64,000 nt of DNA from Alcaligenaceae bacterium. GTDB taxonomy: Bacteria > Pseudomonadota > Gammaproteobacteria > Burkholderiales > Burkholderiaceae_B. Under the pieces are notes generated by a model. That model ran no database searches. It saw only the letters and a program-made list of their open reading frames with translations, and was not told the DNA's origin. Positions within the stretch are counted from its first letter, which is position 1. Each line of letters begins with the position of its first letter. The DNA lies in NCBI GenBank assembly GCA_030538235.1, contig JAUNUJ010000006.1:17699-81698 (forward strand), given 5' to 3'. Made by a program: the position numbers and the translations under genes. Shown here piece by piece: positions 13,643 through 19,409 of the stretch.

Positions 13643-13732
13643 ACCTAAATTTAAACATAAAAAGGGGGGCACTCTGTATACATCAAGATGATGAGGCTGG
13701 GAAATCCTCCCAAGCTCTCAATAGTATATTAG

Positions 13733-13748
13733 ATGTATTAGACATTTA
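13733..13748 (+). repeat. Left copy of 16-bp direct repeat ATGTATTAGACATTTA
   Basis: Exact match to 19078-19093. Confidence 0.85.
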
Positions 13749-14007
13749 GACACAGCTAAACCCTCCTTTTTAACTGTCTCTGACCTTAGCAGATTAACCG
13801 GTCAAGTTAATTGTCGCTCTATATAGAGATAAGTATTTATGTTACGGGTACTTTTAAACCTCTAAAATTCATAACACGCTAACCAAGTGTTAACAGACTG
13901 GATTGGATTTCATGACCATCAATACTCACTCTGTCCTTGGGCATAAGGTCACCCATTGAGGTCTGAGAGGCTTTAGCGACATAACGTGTTTAGAAAATGT
14001 TGACTCA

Positions 14008-15495
14008 TTACAAAATTTCTGACGTCTTAGTAGACGGAATACTCGTCATTTCGCACGCCTTTGCCCCGACACGTTCGATAGCTGAACGATATTTCTCATT
14101 GAATGGATAACAACAAGAAATTCGTAATGCATTCTTATAATCCGATTTGGGTGAATACAATGCGCCGGGCGTGAGAGATATCTTCTCTTTAAGCATCGCC
14201 CTGTGCAACTCTACTGTATCAATATTTCCTGGTATTTCTACCCAAAAAACAAAGCCTCCTTGTGGCTTTGTTGTACGAGTTCCAACAGGAAAGTGTCTGG
14301 CGATTAAAGACAGCGCTTGATTCATATTCTCCTTGTAATGCTTACGTAATTTTCGCAAGTGATGATCATACCCACCGGTTTCTAAAAACTGAGCAATGGT
14401 TTCACTTAATAATTTGGATTCTGTCATCGAAAGTTGTTTTTTTAATCGCTGTATCTGACGACTGTAACGACCAGCGCATATCCATCCGATTCGGAAATCT
14501 GGTGCGAGAGTTTTAGTAAAACTTGAGCAAAAAATAATCCAGTTGTCACGATCAAAGGCTTTTACGGCAGGCAAGGTTTGATCAAATTGCAGCTCACAAT
14601 ACAACCCATCTTCTATCAGAGGAACCTGATATTGATTAACTAACTGTGCTAATCGTTGTTTCGATTTAAGGGGCATACTACAACCGAGTGGGTTGTGTAA
14701 ATTTGGCATACACACAATGGCTTGAATCTGCTTTTTCTTCATCAACACTTCAAGGGTATCAACCGATAAACCTGTTTCGGCGTTTGTGGGAATTTCGATT
14801 ACACGTAAACCCAATGTCGCTAGTAGCGGTATTAAATAAAAATAGGTAGGTGATTCTAGGGCCACACAATCGCCTGCTTTAGTGGTCGCTAAAAGTGCCA
14901 AATGGAGTGCGTCTAAGCAACCATGCGTAATGGTGATTTCATCAATATCAATAACGGCACCGACATCTAGCATACGTCTGGCTATTTGATGCCGTAAATT
15001 AAGACTGCCTGGCGGCAACGCATACTCACAGATGATATTGGGTTGGCGACGTAAGGTCTGTCTCAAAATTTTACTTAACTTTTCACTTGGATAAAATTCA
15101 GAATCATGAGTTGGACAAGCTAGAGAGATATTCGTGAAGTCTGGGTTTTGTTGAGTAGCAAAGGTTGTTTCAATTAACCTCAATACGCTTTGGTCAGGAG
15201 GGGCACTGGCACTGTCTGTAGAAAGCGTTCGTTTAAGTCTAGGCGGTTGATTGCACACATAAAAGCCAGACTGCGGACGAGCCTGTATCAATCCCTGGTC
15301 CTCCAGATGACGGTATGCAGCAACGACTGTATTAATACTGATCGCATAAGTTTTTGCCGTATCTCTTATCGAAGGAAATCTTGTGCCAGCTTTAAAAGTA
15401 CCTAAACTTATCGCTTGGCTTAATTTTTTACTTAGTTTCAGATACAGAGGTTTATTTTTCGAATCTTGTTGGTAAAAAAGGTGAGCATTAGGCAC
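14008..15495 (-). CDS. MocR/GabR family regulator (GntR wHTH plus PLP aminotransferase-like domain)
   Basis: PSIRDTAKTYAISINTVVAAYRHLEDQGLI HTH; NPLG, IEDGLY, SFTKTLAPDFRIGW; GTG start with AGGAG RBS. Confidence 0.93.
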   Translation of the reverse strand: MPNAHLFYQQDSKNKPLYLKLSKKLSQAISLGTFKAGTRFPSIRDTAKTYAISINTVVAAYRHLEDQGLIQARPQSGFYVCNQPPRLKRTLSTDSASAPPDQSVLRLIETTFATQQNPDFTNISLACPTHDSEFYPSEKLSKILRQTLRRQPNIICEYALPPGSLNLRHQIARRMLDVGAVIDIDEITITHGCLDALHLALLATTKAGDCVALESPTYFYLIPLLATLGLRVIEIPTNAETGLSVDTLEVLMKKKQIQAIVCMPNLHNPLGCSMPLKSKQRLAQLVNQYQVPLIEDGLYCELQFDQTLPAVKAFDRDNWIIFCSSFTKTLAPDFRIGWICAGRYSRQIQRLKKQLSMTESKLLSETIAQFLETGGYDHHLRKLRKHYKENMNQALSLIARHFPVGTRTTKPQGGFVFWVEIPGNIDTVELHRAMLKEKISLTPGALYSPKSDYKNALRISCCYPFNEKYRSAIERVGAKACEMTSIPSTKTSEIL

Positions 15496-15898
15496 AATTA
15501 ACTCCTTTTAGGTAGTCGCTGTTGAATTATTTGTTAACTGTACCCATGACAATAGCCCATTACTGCTACTGTTTCAATTAAGAGATTTAGATTATTCTTA
15601 AATAGTAGTTGTGAAATTAGAGAAGTAACACTTAATAAATCTCCTTAACCATGTGTTTTCACAATTCAGTTATTTTGGCTTGTGCCTTTTTAGGTAAGTC
15701 TACGTTGATAGATTATTGAAAATTTTTATTTTTATATTTGATTGTTTAGTAGACGATTACCCTTCAGTACCTAAGATAGATGGTCTATTTACTAATGTAC
15801 TTTAGCGATATTTACCAGACAATTACTATTCTTTAATATTTAACTATGATGAGTTCACTCAGATTTCTTAGACTGCAATAATCATTAGGAGCTAACTT

Positions 15899-16798
15899 AT
15901 GACTAACCTGCTAAGTTATACAGGTAATACTCCAATTATAAAGATTGAGAATATATTTTATCCAGATAAGGCTGATATTTTTGTGAAATTAGAAGAGTTC
16001 AATCCTGGAGGAAGTGTTAAATCAAGACCAGGTGTACATATGGTTCTTGATGCACAGGAAAAAAAGCTGCTAACAAAAGACAAGATTTTACTCGAACCGA
16101 CAGGAGGTAATACCGGGTTGGGTATAACTATCGCTGCTGTTTCTCTAGGATATAAAGTGCATTTAGTTATTCCGGATAATTTCAGCAAAGATAAAATTAA
16201 AAATTTAGAAAGCTATGGTGCCAAAATTATATTATCTGATCATACAACAGGTCCGGGGTCCCATGTTAGATTGGCTAATCAGATATTAGAGTCTGAAAAT
16301 AAGTATATATGTTTAGACCAATTCTCTAACCCTGCAAATCCTATGTCACATTATTTAACTACAGGTCCAGAAATAATCAACCAATTAAAAATACGCAAAG
16401 TTGATGCATTTATTGCAGGTATTGGAACTGGAGGAACTTTGATGGGGGTTGGTAAATATTTAAAAGGAATTAACGCTAACATCAAAATTATTGGTGTCCA
16501 ACCAGAGGGTTGTGATTTCATGAATAATATATTCATCCCACATAAAATCGAAGCGATTGCCGTTGGCTTTATTCCTCCAATAGTTGATTTGGAAATGATT
16601 GATCATATGATAAGTGTAGATTTTTATGAGGTGATGGAATTAAGAGATTGGCTGAGTAAAAAAATGGGCCTTTTTGTTGGTATTTCATCAGGTGCAAATA
16701 TTCTTGCTGCTCTTAAAGAAGCAGCTAAATATCCAAAAGGAAAATTTATTATTACAGTAGCACCAGATAGTGGTAGGAGCTATATAGCTTATGAGTAA
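15899..16798 (+). CDS. Cysteine synthase family PLP enzyme, variant
   Basis: GNTP, KLEEFNPGGSVKSR (PLP Lys), EPTGGNTG, DQFSNPAN, GIGTGGT, GISSGAN, PDSG. Confidence 0.9.
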   Translation: MTNLLSYTGNTPIIKIENIFYPDKADIFVKLEEFNPGGSVKSRPGVHMVLDAQEKKLLTKDKILLEPTGGNTGLGITIAAVSLGYKVHLVIPDNFSKDKIKNLESYGAKIILSDHTTGPGSHVRLANQILESENKYICLDQFSNPANPMSHYLTTGPEIINQLKIRKVDAFIAGIGTGGTLMGVGKYLKGINANIKIIGVQPEGCDFMNNIFIPHKIEAIAVGFIPPIVDLEMIDHMISVDFYEVMELRDWLSKKMGLFVGISSGANILAALKEAAKYPKGKFIITVAPDSGRSYIAYE

Positions 16799-17450
16799 GT
16801 TTCAGGATATATCTCTGCTTTCTATTTCTGATGAGGAACTTATCCTTTCAAAGGTAGTTGGTGTGCTAAGCAAATTTGGTATTTATTATTTAAGCAGGCA
16901 AGAAATTCTTGAAATATGTTCTGCCTTGAATACGGATATGAATGCCTTCTTACAGAAAGACCCCTCAACAAAAAACGATAGCAAAAGTTTTTTGTTATCA
17001 TTTTCTTCTTTTGATGCAGTCATTGGTTATCGAATAGCTCACCATATATTAGATCACTATGAAAAAACAGTCGATTCAAAAAAAATATCAGAATACTTTA
17101 AGATTAAAACTGGTATTGAAATACACTCTGCTGCCGTAATAGGTCATAGCTTTGTCATTGACCATGGAGTTGGTACAGTAATAGGAGAAACCTGTGTTAT
17201 AGGAAATAATTGCTATTTCTTACAACAAATCATCTTAGGTTCTTCTCAAATTGCTTTTAATAATCAAGAGAGTAGACACCCCATTATTGGGAATAATGTT
17301 GAAATAGGCGGATTTGCTCGAATTTTTGGAAAGGTACGTATTGGTAATAATGTAAAAATTGCTCCTCATTCTATTATCAGAGTCGATATTCCTGATAACA
17401 GCTCAGTAATCATGGAAAGTAATGAACAAAAAATCGTTTTGAGAGACTAA
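16791..17450 (+). CDS. Serine O-acetyltransferase-like protein
   Basis: DP, YRIAH, GIEIH, IDHGVGTVIGET, RHPIIG hexapeptide repeats; start overlaps the upstream stop. Confidence 0.85.
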   Translation: MSKFQDISLLSISDEELILSKVVGVLSKFGIYYLSRQEILEICSALNTDMNAFLQKDPSTKNDSKSFLLSFSSFDAVIGYRIAHHILDHYEKTVDSKKISEYFKIKTGIEIHSAAVIGHSFVIDHGVGTVIGETCVIGNNCYFLQQIILGSSQIAFNNQESRHPIIGNNVEIGGFARIFGKVRIGNNVKIAPHSIIRVDIPDNSSVIMESNEQKIVLRD

Positions 17451-18298
17451 TGAAGAATTTATTGTTTTTCTTGACACTTTTCTTCATTACCTGTTTAGCA
17501 ACTGGCGGAATATTTGTAAAGCTTAGTGAATTAGGGCCTGTTACAACAGGATTTTATAGAGTTCTATTTAGTATCCCGATGCTATATCCTTTGCTAAGGA
17601 TGGAAAAAAATTTTTCTTTGTCTATAAAAGATAAAGTGGTGATATTTATTGCTGGCATGTTCCTTGCTGGAGACTTAATTTTATGGAACATTTCTTTCCA
17701 CTACACTACAGTTGCTAACGCAAATTTATTAGCAAATTTAGTGCCATTTACGATTATTCCTTCAGCATATTTTTTCTACAAAGAGAAAGTATCTCGTAAT
17801 TTTTTATTCAGCTTGATTGTTACGTTAATTGGCTTAATCATCTTAATTAACGGCAAGGTTAACCCTAGTCAAAGCAATTTGTATGGCGATATGCTGGCAT
17901 TTGCTACATCTATTTTTTATGCGGCATTTTTACTTATTGTCTATAAGGTAAGAAGGCAAGCATCAGCAATACAGATTATGTATTACAGTGGATATGGGGC
18001 TATGGTAATACTACTTATAAGTAGCATTGTAATGGAAGGTGTGACTTATCCAACTAATTTTCAAACCTTATGGCCACTACTAGGGTTGGCAGTTTTTTCT
18101 CAAATATTAGGTCAAGGAGGACTTAGCTATGTTTTAGGTAAGATCTCCGTCAATTTAGCGGCTGTTCTTGTTTTAACACAGCCAGTCATTTCAGCAATTT
18201 TATCTTATTTTATTTTTCATGAAACCTTATCCATACAAGAGATGTTAGGCCTCTTTATTGTGCTAATGGGTATCTTTTTAGTAAAAAAAGAGCATTAA
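17450..18298 (+). CDS. EamA/DMT family exporter
   Basis: About 10 TM helices in two EamA-like halves; TAATG stop-start overlap. Confidence 0.88.
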   Translation: MKNLLFFLTLFFITCLATGGIFVKLSELGPVTTGFYRVLFSIPMLYPLLRMEKNFSLSIKDKVVIFIAGMFLAGDLILWNISFHYTTVANANLLANLVPFTIIPSAYFFYKEKVSRNFLFSLIVTLIGLIILINGKVNPSQSNLYGDMLAFATSIFYAAFLLIVYKVRRQASAIQIMYYSGYGAMVILLISSIVMEGVTYPTNFQTLWPLLGLAVFSQILGQGGLSYVLGKISVNLAAVLVLTQPVISAILSYFIFHETLSIQEMLGLFIVLMGIFLVKKEH

Positions 18299-18319
18299 TT
18301 TATATTAAAGGATGAACCA

Positions 18320-19066
18320 ATGCGCGCAACAATAAAACGTTATTATGAAGACACGGATGTAATTAGCTGTAAAGCTAAAATCCTTAAGATCCATGAGTCG
18401 GCGATAGAACTCGATCAGACGATAGCTTATCCAGAAGGGGGTGGCCAAGAAGGTGATCATGGTTGGATTCGTTTATGTGCTGATCCTAGCATGGCTATTG
18501 CATTTAACGATACTCAACTTAGCATGGCTACACCTGTTTTTATCGACGATTTTCCTAGCGTCAAAACAGGTGGGATTATATTGCACCATATTTCAAATAA
18601 AGATCGTTTGATTGACTTCGAGATTGGTGATGAAGTGTGGATAGAAATTGATCAGCAGCGCCGAAAAAGTATGTCTTTAAATCATACCGCCGCTCATATT
18701 GTTTACTGGGCTGTTGATATGTATCTACCTAGTGTGGTGGATCATACCATTGGTTGTCATATAAAAACTGATAGTGCTAGGCTAGATTTTGCAACTGAAG
18801 ATCGATTTAGTCAAGAAGACATAAATGAAATTGAGGAATTGAGTAATAAACTAATTAAAGCTGGACACCCAATCATTATGCGTTCACGACAAGATTATTA
18901 CGATGTGCGTTATTGGGAATGCGATGGTTACGTGATTCCCTGTGGAGGCACGCATGTCAAAAATACGAATGAACTTTCTTTACTGAAATTACAACGAAAA
19001 AACATTGGAAAAGGTAAAGAGCGCCTTATCTTTTCGCTCCAGAATCCAACTGAAGTTGAACGATAA
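18320..19066 (+). CDS. Free-standing alanyl-tRNA editing protein (AlaX family)
   Basis: LDQTIAYPEGGGQ.GD, zinc motifs HTAAH and CGGTH, ARLDF. Confidence 0.88.
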   Translation: MRATIKRYYEDTDVISCKAKILKIHESAIELDQTIAYPEGGGQEGDHGWIRLCADPSMAIAFNDTQLSMATPVFIDDFPSVKTGGIILHHISNKDRLIDFEIGDEVWIEIDQQRRKSMSLNHTAAHIVYWAVDMYLPSVVDHTIGCHIKTDSARLDFATEDRFSQEDINEIEELSNKLIKAGHPIIMRSRQDYYDVRYWECDGYVIPCGGTHVKNTNELSLLKLQRKNIGKGKERLIFSLQNPTEVER

Positions 19067-19077
19067 TTTCGTTTTAT

Positions 19078-19093
19078 ATGTATTAGACATTTA
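19078..19093 (+). repeat. Right copy of 16-bp direct repeat ATGTATTAGACATTTA
   Basis: Exact match to 13733-13748; 11 bp after the AlaX stop. Confidence 0.85.
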
Positions 19094-19315: not shown

Positions 19316-19409
19316 TGGCGGGAACGGAGGGATTCGAACCCTCGATACAGGTTTAAGCCCGTATGCTTCCTTAGCAGGGAAGTACCTTCAGCCTCTCGGT
19401 CACGTTCCC
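19316..19409 (-). tRNA. tRNA-Ser(GCT)
   Basis: GGGAACG/CGTTCCC acceptor stem, CTTCC-CT-GCT-AA-GGAAG anticodon arm, long variable arm, GTTCGAATC, encoded CCA. Confidence 0.95.

What the first reader, a model, noticed from the sequence alone, without database searches (positions are those of the whole stretch)
15899..16798. Cysteine synthase homolog with altered substrate-binding motifs
Seen: SVKSR instead of SVKDR, TGGNT instead of the TSGNT carboxylate-binding loop, HKIEAIAVG instead of HKIQGIGAG, and RSY instead of ERY at the C-terminus; the PLP lysine and GTGGT are kept. Known: these loops set OAS and nucleophile specificity in CysK/CysM/MccA/SbnA. Inference: different substrate or nucleophile specificity from housekeeping CysK.
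Basis: partly seen in the sequence, partly recalled or inferred. Interest (0 to 1): 0.6.

Follow-up and report, generated by a model that had tools for sequence, protein, structure and literature searches.

The report
Divergent CysK in mobile export cassette
This gene is an intact but unusual cysteine-synthase-like enzyme from an untested branch of the family; it travels between bacteria in a small cassette with its own serine acetyltransferase, an amino-acid exporter, a tRNA-proofreading protein and a regulator, so it probably makes an exported serine-derived amino acid rather than doing housekeeping cysteine synthesis.

Summary
ORF 15899-16798(+) encodes a 299-aa PLP enzyme with SVKSR, TGGNT, HKIEAIAVG and GRSY, and it keeps Lys41 and GTGGT.

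It scores below every curated NCBIfam cut-off (cysKM, cysK, cysM, SbnA, CBS). In a careful tree it falls in a 100/100-supported clade apart from E. coli CysK, E. coli CysM and the canonical paralogues of the same genomes. No solved structure belongs to this clade.

E. coli CysK has SVKCR. TGGNT also occurs inside otherwise canonical CysK/CBS lineages. The residues that define the clade are G69, H122, C205 and N267.

The gene is the first of a tightly coupled operon: CysK-like, short SAT, EamA exporter, AlaX-type deacylase. A MocR regulator is divergently transcribed. The unit is AT-rich, repeat-flanked and mobile, and it is present in 2 of 9 genomes of the genus. The genome has separate housekeeping CysM-type and SAT genes.

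The same gene set recurs across phyla with interchangeable exporters. The sister subclade (P. aeruginosa PA2104 type) is linked to JAMM/E1/rhodanese sulfur-carrier genes.

Best reading: an accessory serine to O-acetylserine to exported beta-substituted alanine module. The product is probably cysteine or an S-substituted relative; the nucleophile is unproven. The scan noted this cassette before on this window, and a related Pseudomonas islet on other DNA.

The parts
13729..13748 (.). Left copy of a 20-bp direct repeat that bounds the cassette
   Evidence: 19/20 identical to 19074-19093. The block shared with the relative G007 spans window 14001-19076, so it ends inside the right repeat.
14008..15495 (-). 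MocR-type regulator (GntR HTH fused to an aminotransferase-like PLP domain), divergent from the operon
   Evidence: Pfam GntR + Aminotran_1_2. Best NCBIfam hit is PdxR-like, 275 bits, below the cut-off of 320. A MocR gene lies in the same divergent position in L005, L010, L011, L013, L015, L017, L021, L079 and L219.
15496..15898 (.). 403-bp AT-rich divergent control region
   Evidence: About 30% GC. It holds only weak sigma-70-like matches and no ORF above 29 aa, so no small sulfur-carrier gene.
15899..16798 (+). CysK-like PLP enzyme (the finding), 299 aa, a member of a distinct clade
   Evidence: PALP E 1.6e-67. It scores cysKM 303 bits (cut-off 344), cysK 286 (351), cysM 238 (394) and SbnA 193 (350). 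The clade has 100/100 support. The AF2 model has pLDDT 89.8 and TM 0.90 to S. aureus CysK.
16791..17450 (+). Short serine O-acetyltransferase homologue, overlapping the CysK-like gene by 8 bp
   Evidence: cysE model 132.7 bits (cut-off 210). It keeps the equivalents of E. coli D92, D143 (as Glu), D157-H158 and R192-H193, and it has no C-terminal Ile tail.
17450..18298 (+). EamA/DMT-family transporter, whose start shares one base with the SAT stop codon
   Evidence: Pfam EamA 1.1e-27. It is replaced by AzlC/AzlD or MFS transporters in other copies of the module.
18320..19066 (+). AlaX-M-like stand-alone tRNA deacylase
   Evidence: Best PDB matches are P. horikoshii-type AlaX-M entries (2e1b, 9iuw), E about 1e-24. 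H122-x3-H126 and C208-x3-H212 are invariant in 15 cassette-linked relatives. It is the only stand-alone AlaX in the genome.
19074..19093 (.). Right copy of the 20-bp direct repeat
   Evidence: tRNA-Ser(GCT) at 19316-19409(-) lies just outside it, in DNA that the relatives share.

Best explanation
The gene encodes the beta-replacement enzyme of a self-contained, horizontally mobile cassette that converts serine into an exported amino acid.

Proposed steps:
1. The cassette's own short serine acetyltransferase makes O-acetylserine independently of the housekeeping CysE.
2. The CysK-like enzyme forms the PLP-aminoacrylate and adds a nucleophile.
3. The EamA transporter exports the product.
4. The AlaX-type deacylase removes mis-acylated tRNA that arises while the pathway runs.
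5. The MocR regulator switches the operon on in response to an amino compound.

The enzyme belongs to a distinct CysK-like clade marked by G69, H122, C205 and N267. It is not the cell's housekeeping cysteine synthase.

The most likely nucleophile is a small sulfur species. The product would then be cysteine or an S-substituted cysteine, made for export or for detoxifying the nucleophile rather than for the cell's own cysteine supply.

Shown here: clade membership, operon anatomy, accessory and mobile status, recurrence of the module, and intact catalytic motifs. Inferred: every chemical step, the direction of transport, the deacylase's substrate and the regulator's effector.
For: 1. The clade is distinct.
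- It scores below all curated cut-offs.
- It has 100/100 support against E. coli CysK, E. coli CysM and the same-genome paralogues.
- No PDB entry stands out with the family profile; scores run smoothly from 312 to 255 bits.

2. The gene pair is accessory.
- The genome has a CysM-type enzyme over the cut-off and another SAT elsewhere.
- Nine of 10 other genomes carrying the gene also have a canonical CysK/M.

3. The unit is mobile.
- GC is 32-35% against 45-50% in the flanks.
- It is bounded by 20-bp direct repeats.
- It is present in 2 of 9 genomes of the genus. In G007 it sits at a different locus and carries an internal deletion.
- Copies lie on Xenorhabdus and Salmonella plasmid records next to transposase or integrase genes.

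4. The module recurs.
- The CysK-like and SAT genes occur together with AlaX and/or an exporter in Pseudomonadota, Bacillota, Campylobacterota, Fusobacteriota, Bacteroidota, Cyanobacteriota, Actinomycetota and methanogens.
- The exporters are interchangeable: EamA, AzlCD, MFS.
- None of 80 generic AlaX loci has a CysK or SAT neighbour.
- Identities of the CysK-like and AlaX partners to the window's proteins co-vary (rho 0.64, n=22; the rows are kin, not independent).

5. The catalytic sites are intact.
- The PLP enzyme keeps K41, N71, T72, Q141, GTGGT and S263.
- The SAT keeps its catalytic and serine-binding residues.
- The AlaX keeps its zinc motifs.

6. Sulfur chemistry is the leading guess.
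- The sister subclade carries a JAMM gene directly upstream. In Pseudomonas a JAB-ThiF-rhodanese fusion sits in the same MocR/EamA/SAT/AlaX frame.
- A CysK-ThiS fusion cluster is a near structural neighbour in the ESM Atlas.
- A P. aeruginosa cysK cysM double mutant regrows late, and the authors name PA2104/PA1061 as candidates (PMC12800425).

7. The literature has seen the association but has not tested it. 1,562 AlaX genes colocate with 'cysteine biosynthetic genes' (PMC13149037).
Against: No member of the clade has been assayed, so the product is unknown.

The window's subclade lacks JAMM, E1 and carrier genes, so sulfur chemistry is an extrapolation from the sister subclade.

Some variants carry extra enzymes that suggest other or modified products:
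- a SAM methyltransferase in Salmonella and Streptomyces;
- an acyl-CoA-dehydrogenase-like flavoprotein in L221;
- an Asp/Glu-type racemase in Pontibacillus.

Ordinary cysteine synthesis needs no AlaX. The genome already has a stand-alone YbaK-type deacylase. Why a deacylase is needed is therefore unexplained.

I could not read the model's coordinates, so I have not checked that H122, C205 and N267 line the active site.

The characterised MccA, SbnA, DcsD, CysK2 and M. tuberculosis CysM were compared only through HMM and PDB scores, not placed in the tree.
Confidence: 0.5

Rival explanations
1. The cassette makes a non-cysteine, non-proteinogenic beta-substituted alanine from O-acetylserine and a non-sulfide nucleophile (for example methanethiol, cyanide, another thiol or an N-nucleophile). 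The product is either an exported antimetabolite or a detoxification conjugate. The AlaX-type deacylase is producer self-protection against charging that product onto tRNA.
For: tRNA deacylases mark pathways for non-canonical amino acids (BesG, AlfB; PMC13149037).

The enzyme coexists with canonical CysK/M. Its active-site loops are remodelled across the clade.

An exporter is always present. Control is by an amino-acid-type MocR regulator rather than a cys regulon regulator.

Variants carry a methyltransferase, a flavoprotein, ATP-grasp/P450 genes or a racemase.
Against: The cassette has no gene for making a special nucleophile.

The AlaX partner is kept across variants whose accessory enzymes differ. 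That fits a role tied to the shared part of the pathway (serine, O-acetylserine or cysteine) better than a role tied to one exotic product.

The sister subclade is linked to sulfur-carrier machinery.

Millar et al. place these AlaX genes in the main AlaX cluster together with the canonical Ser-tRNA(Ala) editors.
Confidence: 0.28
2. It is simply a second, redundant cysteine synthase isozyme for the cell's own cysteine supply, and the motif changes are neutral.
For: The fold and all PLP-binding residues are those of CysK.

A serine-to-glycine change in the Asn loop is also found inside canonical clades.

In one archaeal MAG (G042) it is the only CysK-family hit, at 342 bits, just under the cut-off.

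NCBI annotates relatives as 'cysteine synthase family protein'.
Against: Redundancy does not explain several features:
- the dedicated SAT without a C-terminal tail;
- the exporter, the deacylase and the MocR control;
- the mobility and the frequent decay of copies;
- strict conservation of four clade-specific residues over 34-90% identity.
Confidence: 0.12
3. Like its sister subclade, the enzyme takes sulfur from a ubiquitin-like protein thiocarboxylate (CysO/ThiS/MoaD type), here encoded elsewhere in the genome.
For: G69, H122, C205 and N267 are shared with the JAMM/E1-linked subclade. A CysK-ThiS fusion cluster is a near structural neighbour in the ESM Atlas.
Against: The cassette and window show no JAMM, E1, rhodanese or small GG-ended ORF. 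Without a JAMM peptidase the carrier-cysteine adduct could not be released. None of the subclade A loci examined has a JAMM neighbour.
Confidence: 0.06
4. The pathway works on tRNA-bound serine: the SAT acetylates Ser-tRNA and the PLP enzyme converts it. This would be analogous to the selenocysteine and SepCysS routes.
For: Translation-linked partners are present: AlaX throughout, and an EF-1alpha-like GTPase in the archaeal, Lachnospiraceae and Bacteroidales variants. The Ser69-to-Gly change could make room at the carboxylate site.
Against: The SAT keeps the Arg-His pair that binds the free carboxylate. The PLP enzyme keeps T68, N71, T72 and Q141 of the carboxylate site. No tRNA gene lies inside the cassette, and an amino-acid exporter is part of it.
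Confidence: 0.02

Closest known systems
O-acetylserine sulfhydrylase A (CysK), e.g. S. aureus CysK (PDB 8srt/8t2c) and E. coli CysK
   Same: It has the same fold (TM 0.90, 38% identity). It keeps the PLP lysine, the Asn-loop Asn/Thr, Gln141, the GTGGT phosphate loop and the Ser that contacts the pyridine N. It probably uses the same substrate, O-acetylserine.
   Different: - It scores below the TIGR01139 and TIGR01136 cut-offs and falls in a separate clade.
- It has G69, H122, C205 and N267 in place of Ser, Ala, Ser and Ala.
- The PxxMS and GMKGA loops are replaced by PDNFS and G-x-x-S-H.
- Its SAT partner has no C-terminal Ile tail. From established knowledge, that tail is what docks into CysK in the cysteine synthase complex.
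- It is accessory and mobile.
P. aeruginosa PA2100-PA2106 islet (MdrR2/MocR, EamA, JAB, MoeB-rhodanese, PA2104 cysteine synthase, PA2105 acetyltransferase, PA2106 AlaX-like); operon type 4c of Iyer, Burroughs and Aravind 2006
   Same: The frame is the same: MocR divergent from EamA, then CysK-like, SAT and AlaX-like. The PA2104-type protein is in the same clade, in sister subclade B, and shares G69, H122, C205 and N267. It is likewise uncharacterised biochemically (PMC12800425, PMC13256707).
   Different: The Pseudomonas version adds a JAB-ThiF-rhodanese sulfur-carrier system and has SHKAR/SGGNT motifs. The proteins are only 38% (CysK-like), 46% (SAT) and 28% (AlaX) identical to the window's. 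Its expression data may not transfer to the window's cassette: it rises after rpoH induction and after N-acetylcysteine exposure (PMC9866376, PMC9431628).
[quoted passage not shown]
   Same: The association is the same: a stand-alone AlaX next to cysteine-synthase and acetyltransferase genes. It was reported for 1,562 AlaX genes with over 90% co-occurrence.
   Different: The paper files these under primary metabolism and does not characterise them. Here the linked CysK/SAT pair is an accessory, mobile, exporter-coupled paralogue set that coexists with the housekeeping enzymes.
M. tuberculosis CysM-CysO-Mec+ sulfur-carrier cysteine pathway
   Same: A CysK-family enzyme is teamed with a JAMM peptidase in the sister subclade.
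   Different: The window's cassette has no carrier, E1 or JAMM genes. It carries a SAT (O-acetylserine), whereas from established knowledge M. tuberculosis CysM uses O-phosphoserine. M. tuberculosis CysM did not appear among the best 60 PDB matches.
CysK-family enzymes with non-sulfide chemistry: DcsD (O-ureidoserine synthase), SbnA, OAS-dependent cystathionine beta-synthase (MccA type), plant beta-cyanoalanine and S-methylcysteine synthases
   Same: They use the same fold and beta-replacement logic. DcsD also works with a dedicated serine acetyltransferase (established knowledge).
   Different: There is no specific affinity. DcsD (3x43) scores 192 bits, H. pylori OAS-dependent CBS (6ahi) 193 bits and L. 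plantarum CBS (5b1h) 180 bits, against 233 bits for CysK. The SbnA model scores 193 bits against a cut-off of 350.

Membership tests
Fold-type II PLP enzymes, CysK/CysM/CBS superfamily (Pfam PALP) | PALP domain over its full length with the Schiff-base lysine | tested here: met
   PF00291 E 1.6e-67 over residues 7-290. K41 is invariant. The fold has TM 0.90 to CysK.
CysK, cysteine synthase A (TIGR01139) / cysKM subfamily (TIGR01136) | Score at or above the curated cut-off | tested here: not met
   285.7 bits against 350.95, and 303 bits against 344.15. The genome's other paralogue scores 379 bits, over the cut-off.
CysK, cysteine synthase A | Asn-loop TSGNT with Ser69 contacting the substrate carboxylate | tested here: not met
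   The loop reads TGGNT, and G69 is invariant in 63 relatives. The same change also occurs in some otherwise canonical sequences.
CysK, cysteine synthase A | Placement inside the clade that contains E. coli CysK | tested here: not met
   It falls in a separate clade with 100/100 support.
CysK, cysteine synthase A | Sulfhydrylase activity with O-acetylserine and sulfide | not testable with these tools
   This needs an enzyme assay.
CysM, cysteine synthase B (TIGR01138 / PRK11761) | Score at or above the cut-off, and placement with E. coli CysM | tested here: not met
   238 bits against 394, and 223 bits against 413. The CysM clade, which includes this genome's housekeeping enzyme, is separate.
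SbnA / cystathionine beta-synthase / cysteate synthase CapA | Score at or above the curated cut-off | tested here: not met
   SbnA 193 bits against 350; CBS 247 against 510; CapA 180 against 600.
AlaX-linked accessory CysK-like/SAT module (this clade, subclade A) | Clade residues G69, H122, C205 and N267; an adjacent short SAT; an AlaX-type deacylase and an amino-acid exporter in the same operon | tested here: met
Sulfur-carrier (CysO/ThiS-JAMM-E1) cysteine synthase operons | JAMM peptidase, E1-like/rhodanese protein and a GG-ended carrier encoded beside the synthase | tested here: not met
   A tblastn search of the window with the Pseudomonas JAB-ThiF-rhodanese protein gave no match. The cassette's non-coding stretches hold no small carrier ORF.

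The most novel reading that the evidence does not exclude
Subclade A cassettes are portable factories for an exported amino acid that is not ordinary cysteine. The product would be a beta-substituted alanine made from O-acetylserine and an environmental nucleophile, acting as a toxin against competitors or as a detoxification conjugate. The hard-wired AlaX-type deacylase has co-evolved to keep that product, or O-acetylserine itself, out of the producer's proteins. If so, the roughly 1,500 'cysteine-context' AlaX genes now filed under primary metabolism would instead mark a widespread, unrecognised class of specialised amino-acid metabolism.
Probability: 0.3. Interest if true: 0.75.

Novelty: new variant of a known kind. 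Interest (0 to 1): 0.55.

Why it matters
CysK-family enzymes are drug targets and biocatalysts for making non-canonical amino acids, and their loops set nucleophile specificity. This analysis defines an untested clade with four fixed residue changes and shows it is not the housekeeping enzyme.

The clade moves between gut, host-associated and environmental bacteria, and archaea, as a unit with a feedback-tail-less SAT, an exporter and a tRNA deacylase. Finding its product would explain why a translation-proofreading gene is tied to an O-acetylserine pathway. That link has been seen in about 1,500 genomes but dismissed as primary metabolism.

It would also show whether bacteria carry a natural counterpart of the engineered design of a deregulated SAT plus an exporter for cysteine overproduction. 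The comparison with that engineered design rests on my own knowledge, not on a tool result.

Tried and rejected
I used it as a negative control: 0 of 80 have CysK or SAT neighbours.
- PADLOC gave no defence-system match for any cassette protein.
- The family profile against the PDB found no structure that belongs to the clade.
- I tested the idea that the deacylase replaces a missing YbaK (Cys-tRNA(Pro) editing). The genome has a stand-alone YbaK-type gene and a ProRS editing domain, so this was dropped as the rationale.
- I looked for a hidden sulfur-carrier ORF or JAMM/E1 genes in the window and found none.
- The tRNA-dependent pathway idea was kept only as a 2% rival, because the sites that bind the free carboxylate are conserved.
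- Literature searches for AlaX + cysteine synthase + SAT, MocR + cysteine synthase + EamA, and alanyl-tRNA editing + cysteine synthase found nothing. PMC6256797 (MdrR2) is not held.
- I could not read the AF2 model's coordinates, so no distances from H122, C205 or N267 to the cofactor were measured.
- Sequences of the characterised MccA, SbnA, DcsD, CysK2 and M. tuberculosis CysM were not available by reference. They were compared only through HMM and PDB scores.
Full report
**1. Observation**

The ORF at 15899-16798(+) is open, starts at an ATG nine bases after AGGAG, and encodes 299 residues. The reverse strand is closed.

The PLP lysine and the phosphate loop are kept.

The changes are under selection. 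In 63 relatives of 47-90% identity, K41, the whole TGGNT loop, Q141, G176, G179, T180, S263 and Y295 are invariant.

**2. What the protein is**

Pfam sees a full-length PALP domain. In NCBIfam the best model is the cysKM subfamily at 303 bits, under its 344-bit cut-off. The scores for cysK, cysM, CBS, SbnA and cysteate synthase are all far under their cut-offs.

The nearest solved structures are ordinary CysKs (S. aureus 8t2c/8srt, E 5e-68, about 38% identity). CBS, CysM, DcsD and the OAS-dependent CBS enzymes score lower. A profile of the family finds no PDB entry that stands out; scores fall smoothly from 312 to 255 bits. No member of this clade has therefore been solved.

An AlphaFold model (pLDDT 89.8) superposes on S. 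aureus CysK at TM 0.90. The fold is standard.

**3. Phylogeny**

The tree combined three sets of sequences:
- relatives fetched from species-representative genomes;
- the canonical CysK-family paralogues from the same genomes;
- E. coli CysK and CysM.

A careful IQ-TREE run separates a clade containing the window's protein from all the other sequences with 100/100 support. Within it, subclade A (the window, Alcaligenes, Bartonella, Salmonella, Xenorhabdus, Pasteurellaceae, Streptococcus, Campylobacteraceae, clostridia, Bacteroidales, methanogens) has 99/94 support. Subclade B (actinomycetes, cyanobacteria, Nitrospirota and a Pseudomonas PA2104-type protein) has 99/93 support.

**4. Which residues matter**

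- E. coli CysK itself reads SVKCR.
- TGGNT is also found in sequences that keep SVKDR, HKIQGIGAGF and GERY and that sit within or beside the canonical clade, for example L062 and L066.

A group comparison gives the positions that are fixed in both subclades and differ from both CysK and CysM: G69 (Ser), H122 (Ala, at the end of the GMKGA loop), C205 (Ser in CysK's SPV loop, Gly in CysM) and N267 (Ala after the SSG motif). In addition, the PxxMS segment reads PDNFS, and the active-site Met of GMKGA is replaced.

From published CysK structures (my knowledge) these loops border the substrate and nucleophile site. I could not read the model's coordinates to check this.

**5. Surroundings in the window**

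The gene is the first of four tightly packed genes:
- a short serine acetyltransferase homologue at 16791-17450, overlapping it by 8 bp;
- an EamA/DMT transporter at 17450-18298, sharing one base with the SAT stop codon;
- an AlaX-M-like deacylase at 18320-19066, after a 21-bp gap.

A MocR-type regulator at 14008-15495 is transcribed divergently.

The SAT keeps the equivalents of E. coli D92, D143 (as Glu), D157-H158 and R192-H193, so free serine is the likely substrate. It lacks the C-terminal tail ending in Ile. From established knowledge, that tail mediates docking to CysK and contributes to feedback inhibition.

The deacylase keeps the HxxxH and CxxxH zinc motifs, which are invariant in 15 cassette-linked relatives. 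It is the only stand-alone AlaX in the genome.

**6. Accessory and mobile status**

- The genome (2.43 Mb) is probably an Oligella. I infer this from 97% identity to Oligella sp. MSHR50489EDL and from its same-genus status.
- The genome has a CysM-type enzyme over the curated cut-off on another contig. It also has a better-scoring SAT elsewhere.
- The cassette has 32-35% GC against 45-50% in the flanks.
- It is bracketed by a 20-bp direct repeat, 19/20 identical, at 13729-13748 and 19074-19093.
- Among the nine genomes of the genus (this one and eight relatives), only this one and G007 carry it.
- In G007 the block corresponding to window 14001-19076 lies about 230 kb from the lysC/tRNA-Ser locus that adjoins it here. 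That copy has lost window 16407-17269, fusing the two enzyme genes.
- Copies lie on a Xenorhabdus plasmid and on a 473-kb Salmonella plasmid record, next to transposase or integrase genes.
- In my ORF calls several other copies look split or truncated: L004, L008, L011, L024, L052, L054 and L079. I did not check them base by base, and some are MAGs.

**7. The module recurs**

Of the loci in this clade, almost all have the SAT gene adjacent. About twenty also have an AlaX relative of 27-86% identity. Many have EamA and MocR genes.

The transporter is interchangeable: EamA, AzlC/AzlD (Cellulosilyticum, Pontibacillus, Salmonella) or MFS (a Pseudomonas variant). This points to export of an amino acid as a core function.

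As a control, none of 80 loci with generic AlaX genes (25-30% identity) has a CysK or SAT neighbour within 6 kb.

Nine of 10 other genomes carrying the clade also have a canonical CysK/CysM over the cut-off. The exception is an archaeal MAG.

**8. The sister subclade and sulfur**

I fetched a Pseudomonas copy and confirmed this gene order: MocR divergent from EamA, then a 633-aa JAB-ThiF-rhodanese fusion, a CysK-like gene, a SAT gene and an AlaX-like gene.

Its CysK-like protein carries SGGNT, SHKAR, PDNYS, G-x-x-S-H and ECD, and it falls in subclade B.

A JAB/JAMM gene lies directly upstream of the synthase in the cyanobacterial loci, most non-Streptomyces actinomycete loci and the Nitrospirota locus of subclade B. 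It does not occur in any subclade A locus examined.

The ESM Atlas lists a CysK-ThiS fusion cluster as a near structural neighbour.

Iyer, Burroughs and Aravind predicted this JAB/E1/ThiS/cysteine-synthase operon type, including the P. aeruginosa example, in 2006 (PMC1779556).

This makes sulfur chemistry the leading guess for the clade. However, the window's cassette has no carrier, E1 or JAMM genes, so a small nucleophile is expected here.

**9. Literature**

- Millar et al. (Nat Chem 2026, PMC13149037) report that 1,562 AlaX genes colocate at over 90% with 'cysteine biosynthetic genes'. They count them as primary metabolism and do not characterise them. The same paper shows that AlaX-family deacylases protect producers of non-canonical amino acids.
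- PA2104 and PA2105 are named but untested. A P. aeruginosa cysK cysM double mutant regrows late, which the authors attribute to PA2104 and/or PA1061 (PMC12800425, PMC13256707).
- PA2101-PA2104 and PA2106 rise 2.2-4.3-fold after 15 minutes of rpoH induction (PMC9866376, Table 5).
- PA2100-PA2103 rise on exposure to N-acetylcysteine (PMC9431628).

These expression data fit a stress-linked accessory role, but they come from the sister subclade.

**10. Interpretation**

The best-supported reading is an accessory module: serine to O-acetylserine to a beta-substituted alanine that is exported. I put about 0.5 on the product being cysteine or an S-substituted relative. I put about 0.3 on a different non-canonical amino acid.

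Why a tRNA deacylase is built in remains unexplained. It is retained across variants with different accessory enzymes, which suggests a link to the shared part of the pathway. The genome already has a YbaK-type editor.

A plain redundant isozyme (0.12), a carrier-dependent enzyme using a carrier encoded elsewhere (0.06) and a tRNA-bound pathway (0.02) are less likely.

**11. Verdict**

This is a new variant of a known kind. It is an untested CysK-like clade in a recurrent mobile cassette whose existence has been glimpsed but misfiled in the literature. This scan flagged the same cassette on this window (e1-5207094, e1-5207093) and the Pseudomonas relative on other DNA (e1-2548477).

Noticed in passing
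L012:8966-10489, L020:8988-10553, L022:4779-6128, L023:5598-6944, L026:7776-9182, L028:8925-10400, L037:4974-6371: In the archaeal, Lachnospiraceae and Bacteroidales copies of the module the transporter is replaced by a 450-520-aa, very divergent EF-1alpha/EF-Tu-like GTPase with G1, G3 and G4 motifs (EF-1alpha model E 2.7e-18, far below the cut-off). An HD-domain protein of about 190 aa is often upstream. A translation-factor-like GTPase next to a CysK-like enzyme, a SAT and an AlaX has no explanation yet.
   Followed up: partly
L221:2148-9971 (Pseudomonas sp. G057): This is another variant: MocR divergent from a SAT-like gene (39% identity), an AlaX-like gene (40%), an MFS transporter, a distant PALP enzyme (29%) and an acyl-CoA-dehydrogenase-like flavoprotein. 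It looks like a different amino-acid pathway built on the same frame.
   Followed up: partly
L103:5193-9065 (Salmonella serovar India plasmid record) and L102:5995-12876 (Xenorhabdus sp. TH1 plasmid): The Salmonella copy has AlaX divergent from a CysK-like gene, SAT, a class I SAM methyltransferase and AzlC. The Xenorhabdus copy has a CysK-like gene, SAT and a DMT transporter, followed by an Fe-S L-serine dehydratase gene and a plasmid-borne valine-tRNA ligase gene.
   Followed up: no
window 13748-13823 and 13873-14012: Two short elements (about 75 and 140 bp) lie between the left direct repeat and the end of the MocR gene. They occur in many copies in genomes of the same genus (G001, G002, G007), so they look like MITE or REP-type repeats.
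   Followed up: no
window 15609-15626 and 15981-15998: An 18-nt sequence in the divergent control region recurs at 16/18 identity inside the start of the CysK-like coding region, 372 bp downstream. It could be an operator pair or chance.
   Followed up: no
L005 / L121, L126 (G007, Oligella sp. MSHR50489EDL chromosome): The cassette is about 90% identical in DNA to the window's copy, while the neighbouring core gene lysC is only 82% identical. The cassette also sits at a different chromosomal site. Both points suggest transfer within the genus more recent than the species split.
   Followed up: partly
G000:C9:258427-259308 (L114): The genome's only cysteine synthase over the curated cut-off groups with E. 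coli CysM, not CysK. No CysK-type housekeeping enzyme was found in this genome.
   Followed up: partly
L036-L048 (Streptomyces and Pseudonocardia loci): In these subclade B loci the SAT and CysK-like pair sits among P450, MFS, PGM1-like ATP-grasp and methyltransferase genes. This looks like a small peptide or amino-acid biosynthetic gene cluster.
   Followed up: no
L014:4790-5479 (Pontibacillus litoralis): An Asp/Glu/hydantoin-racemase-family gene follows the SAT gene, and AzlC/AzlD genes lie upstream. This hints that the exported product may be racemised in that organism.
   Followed up: no
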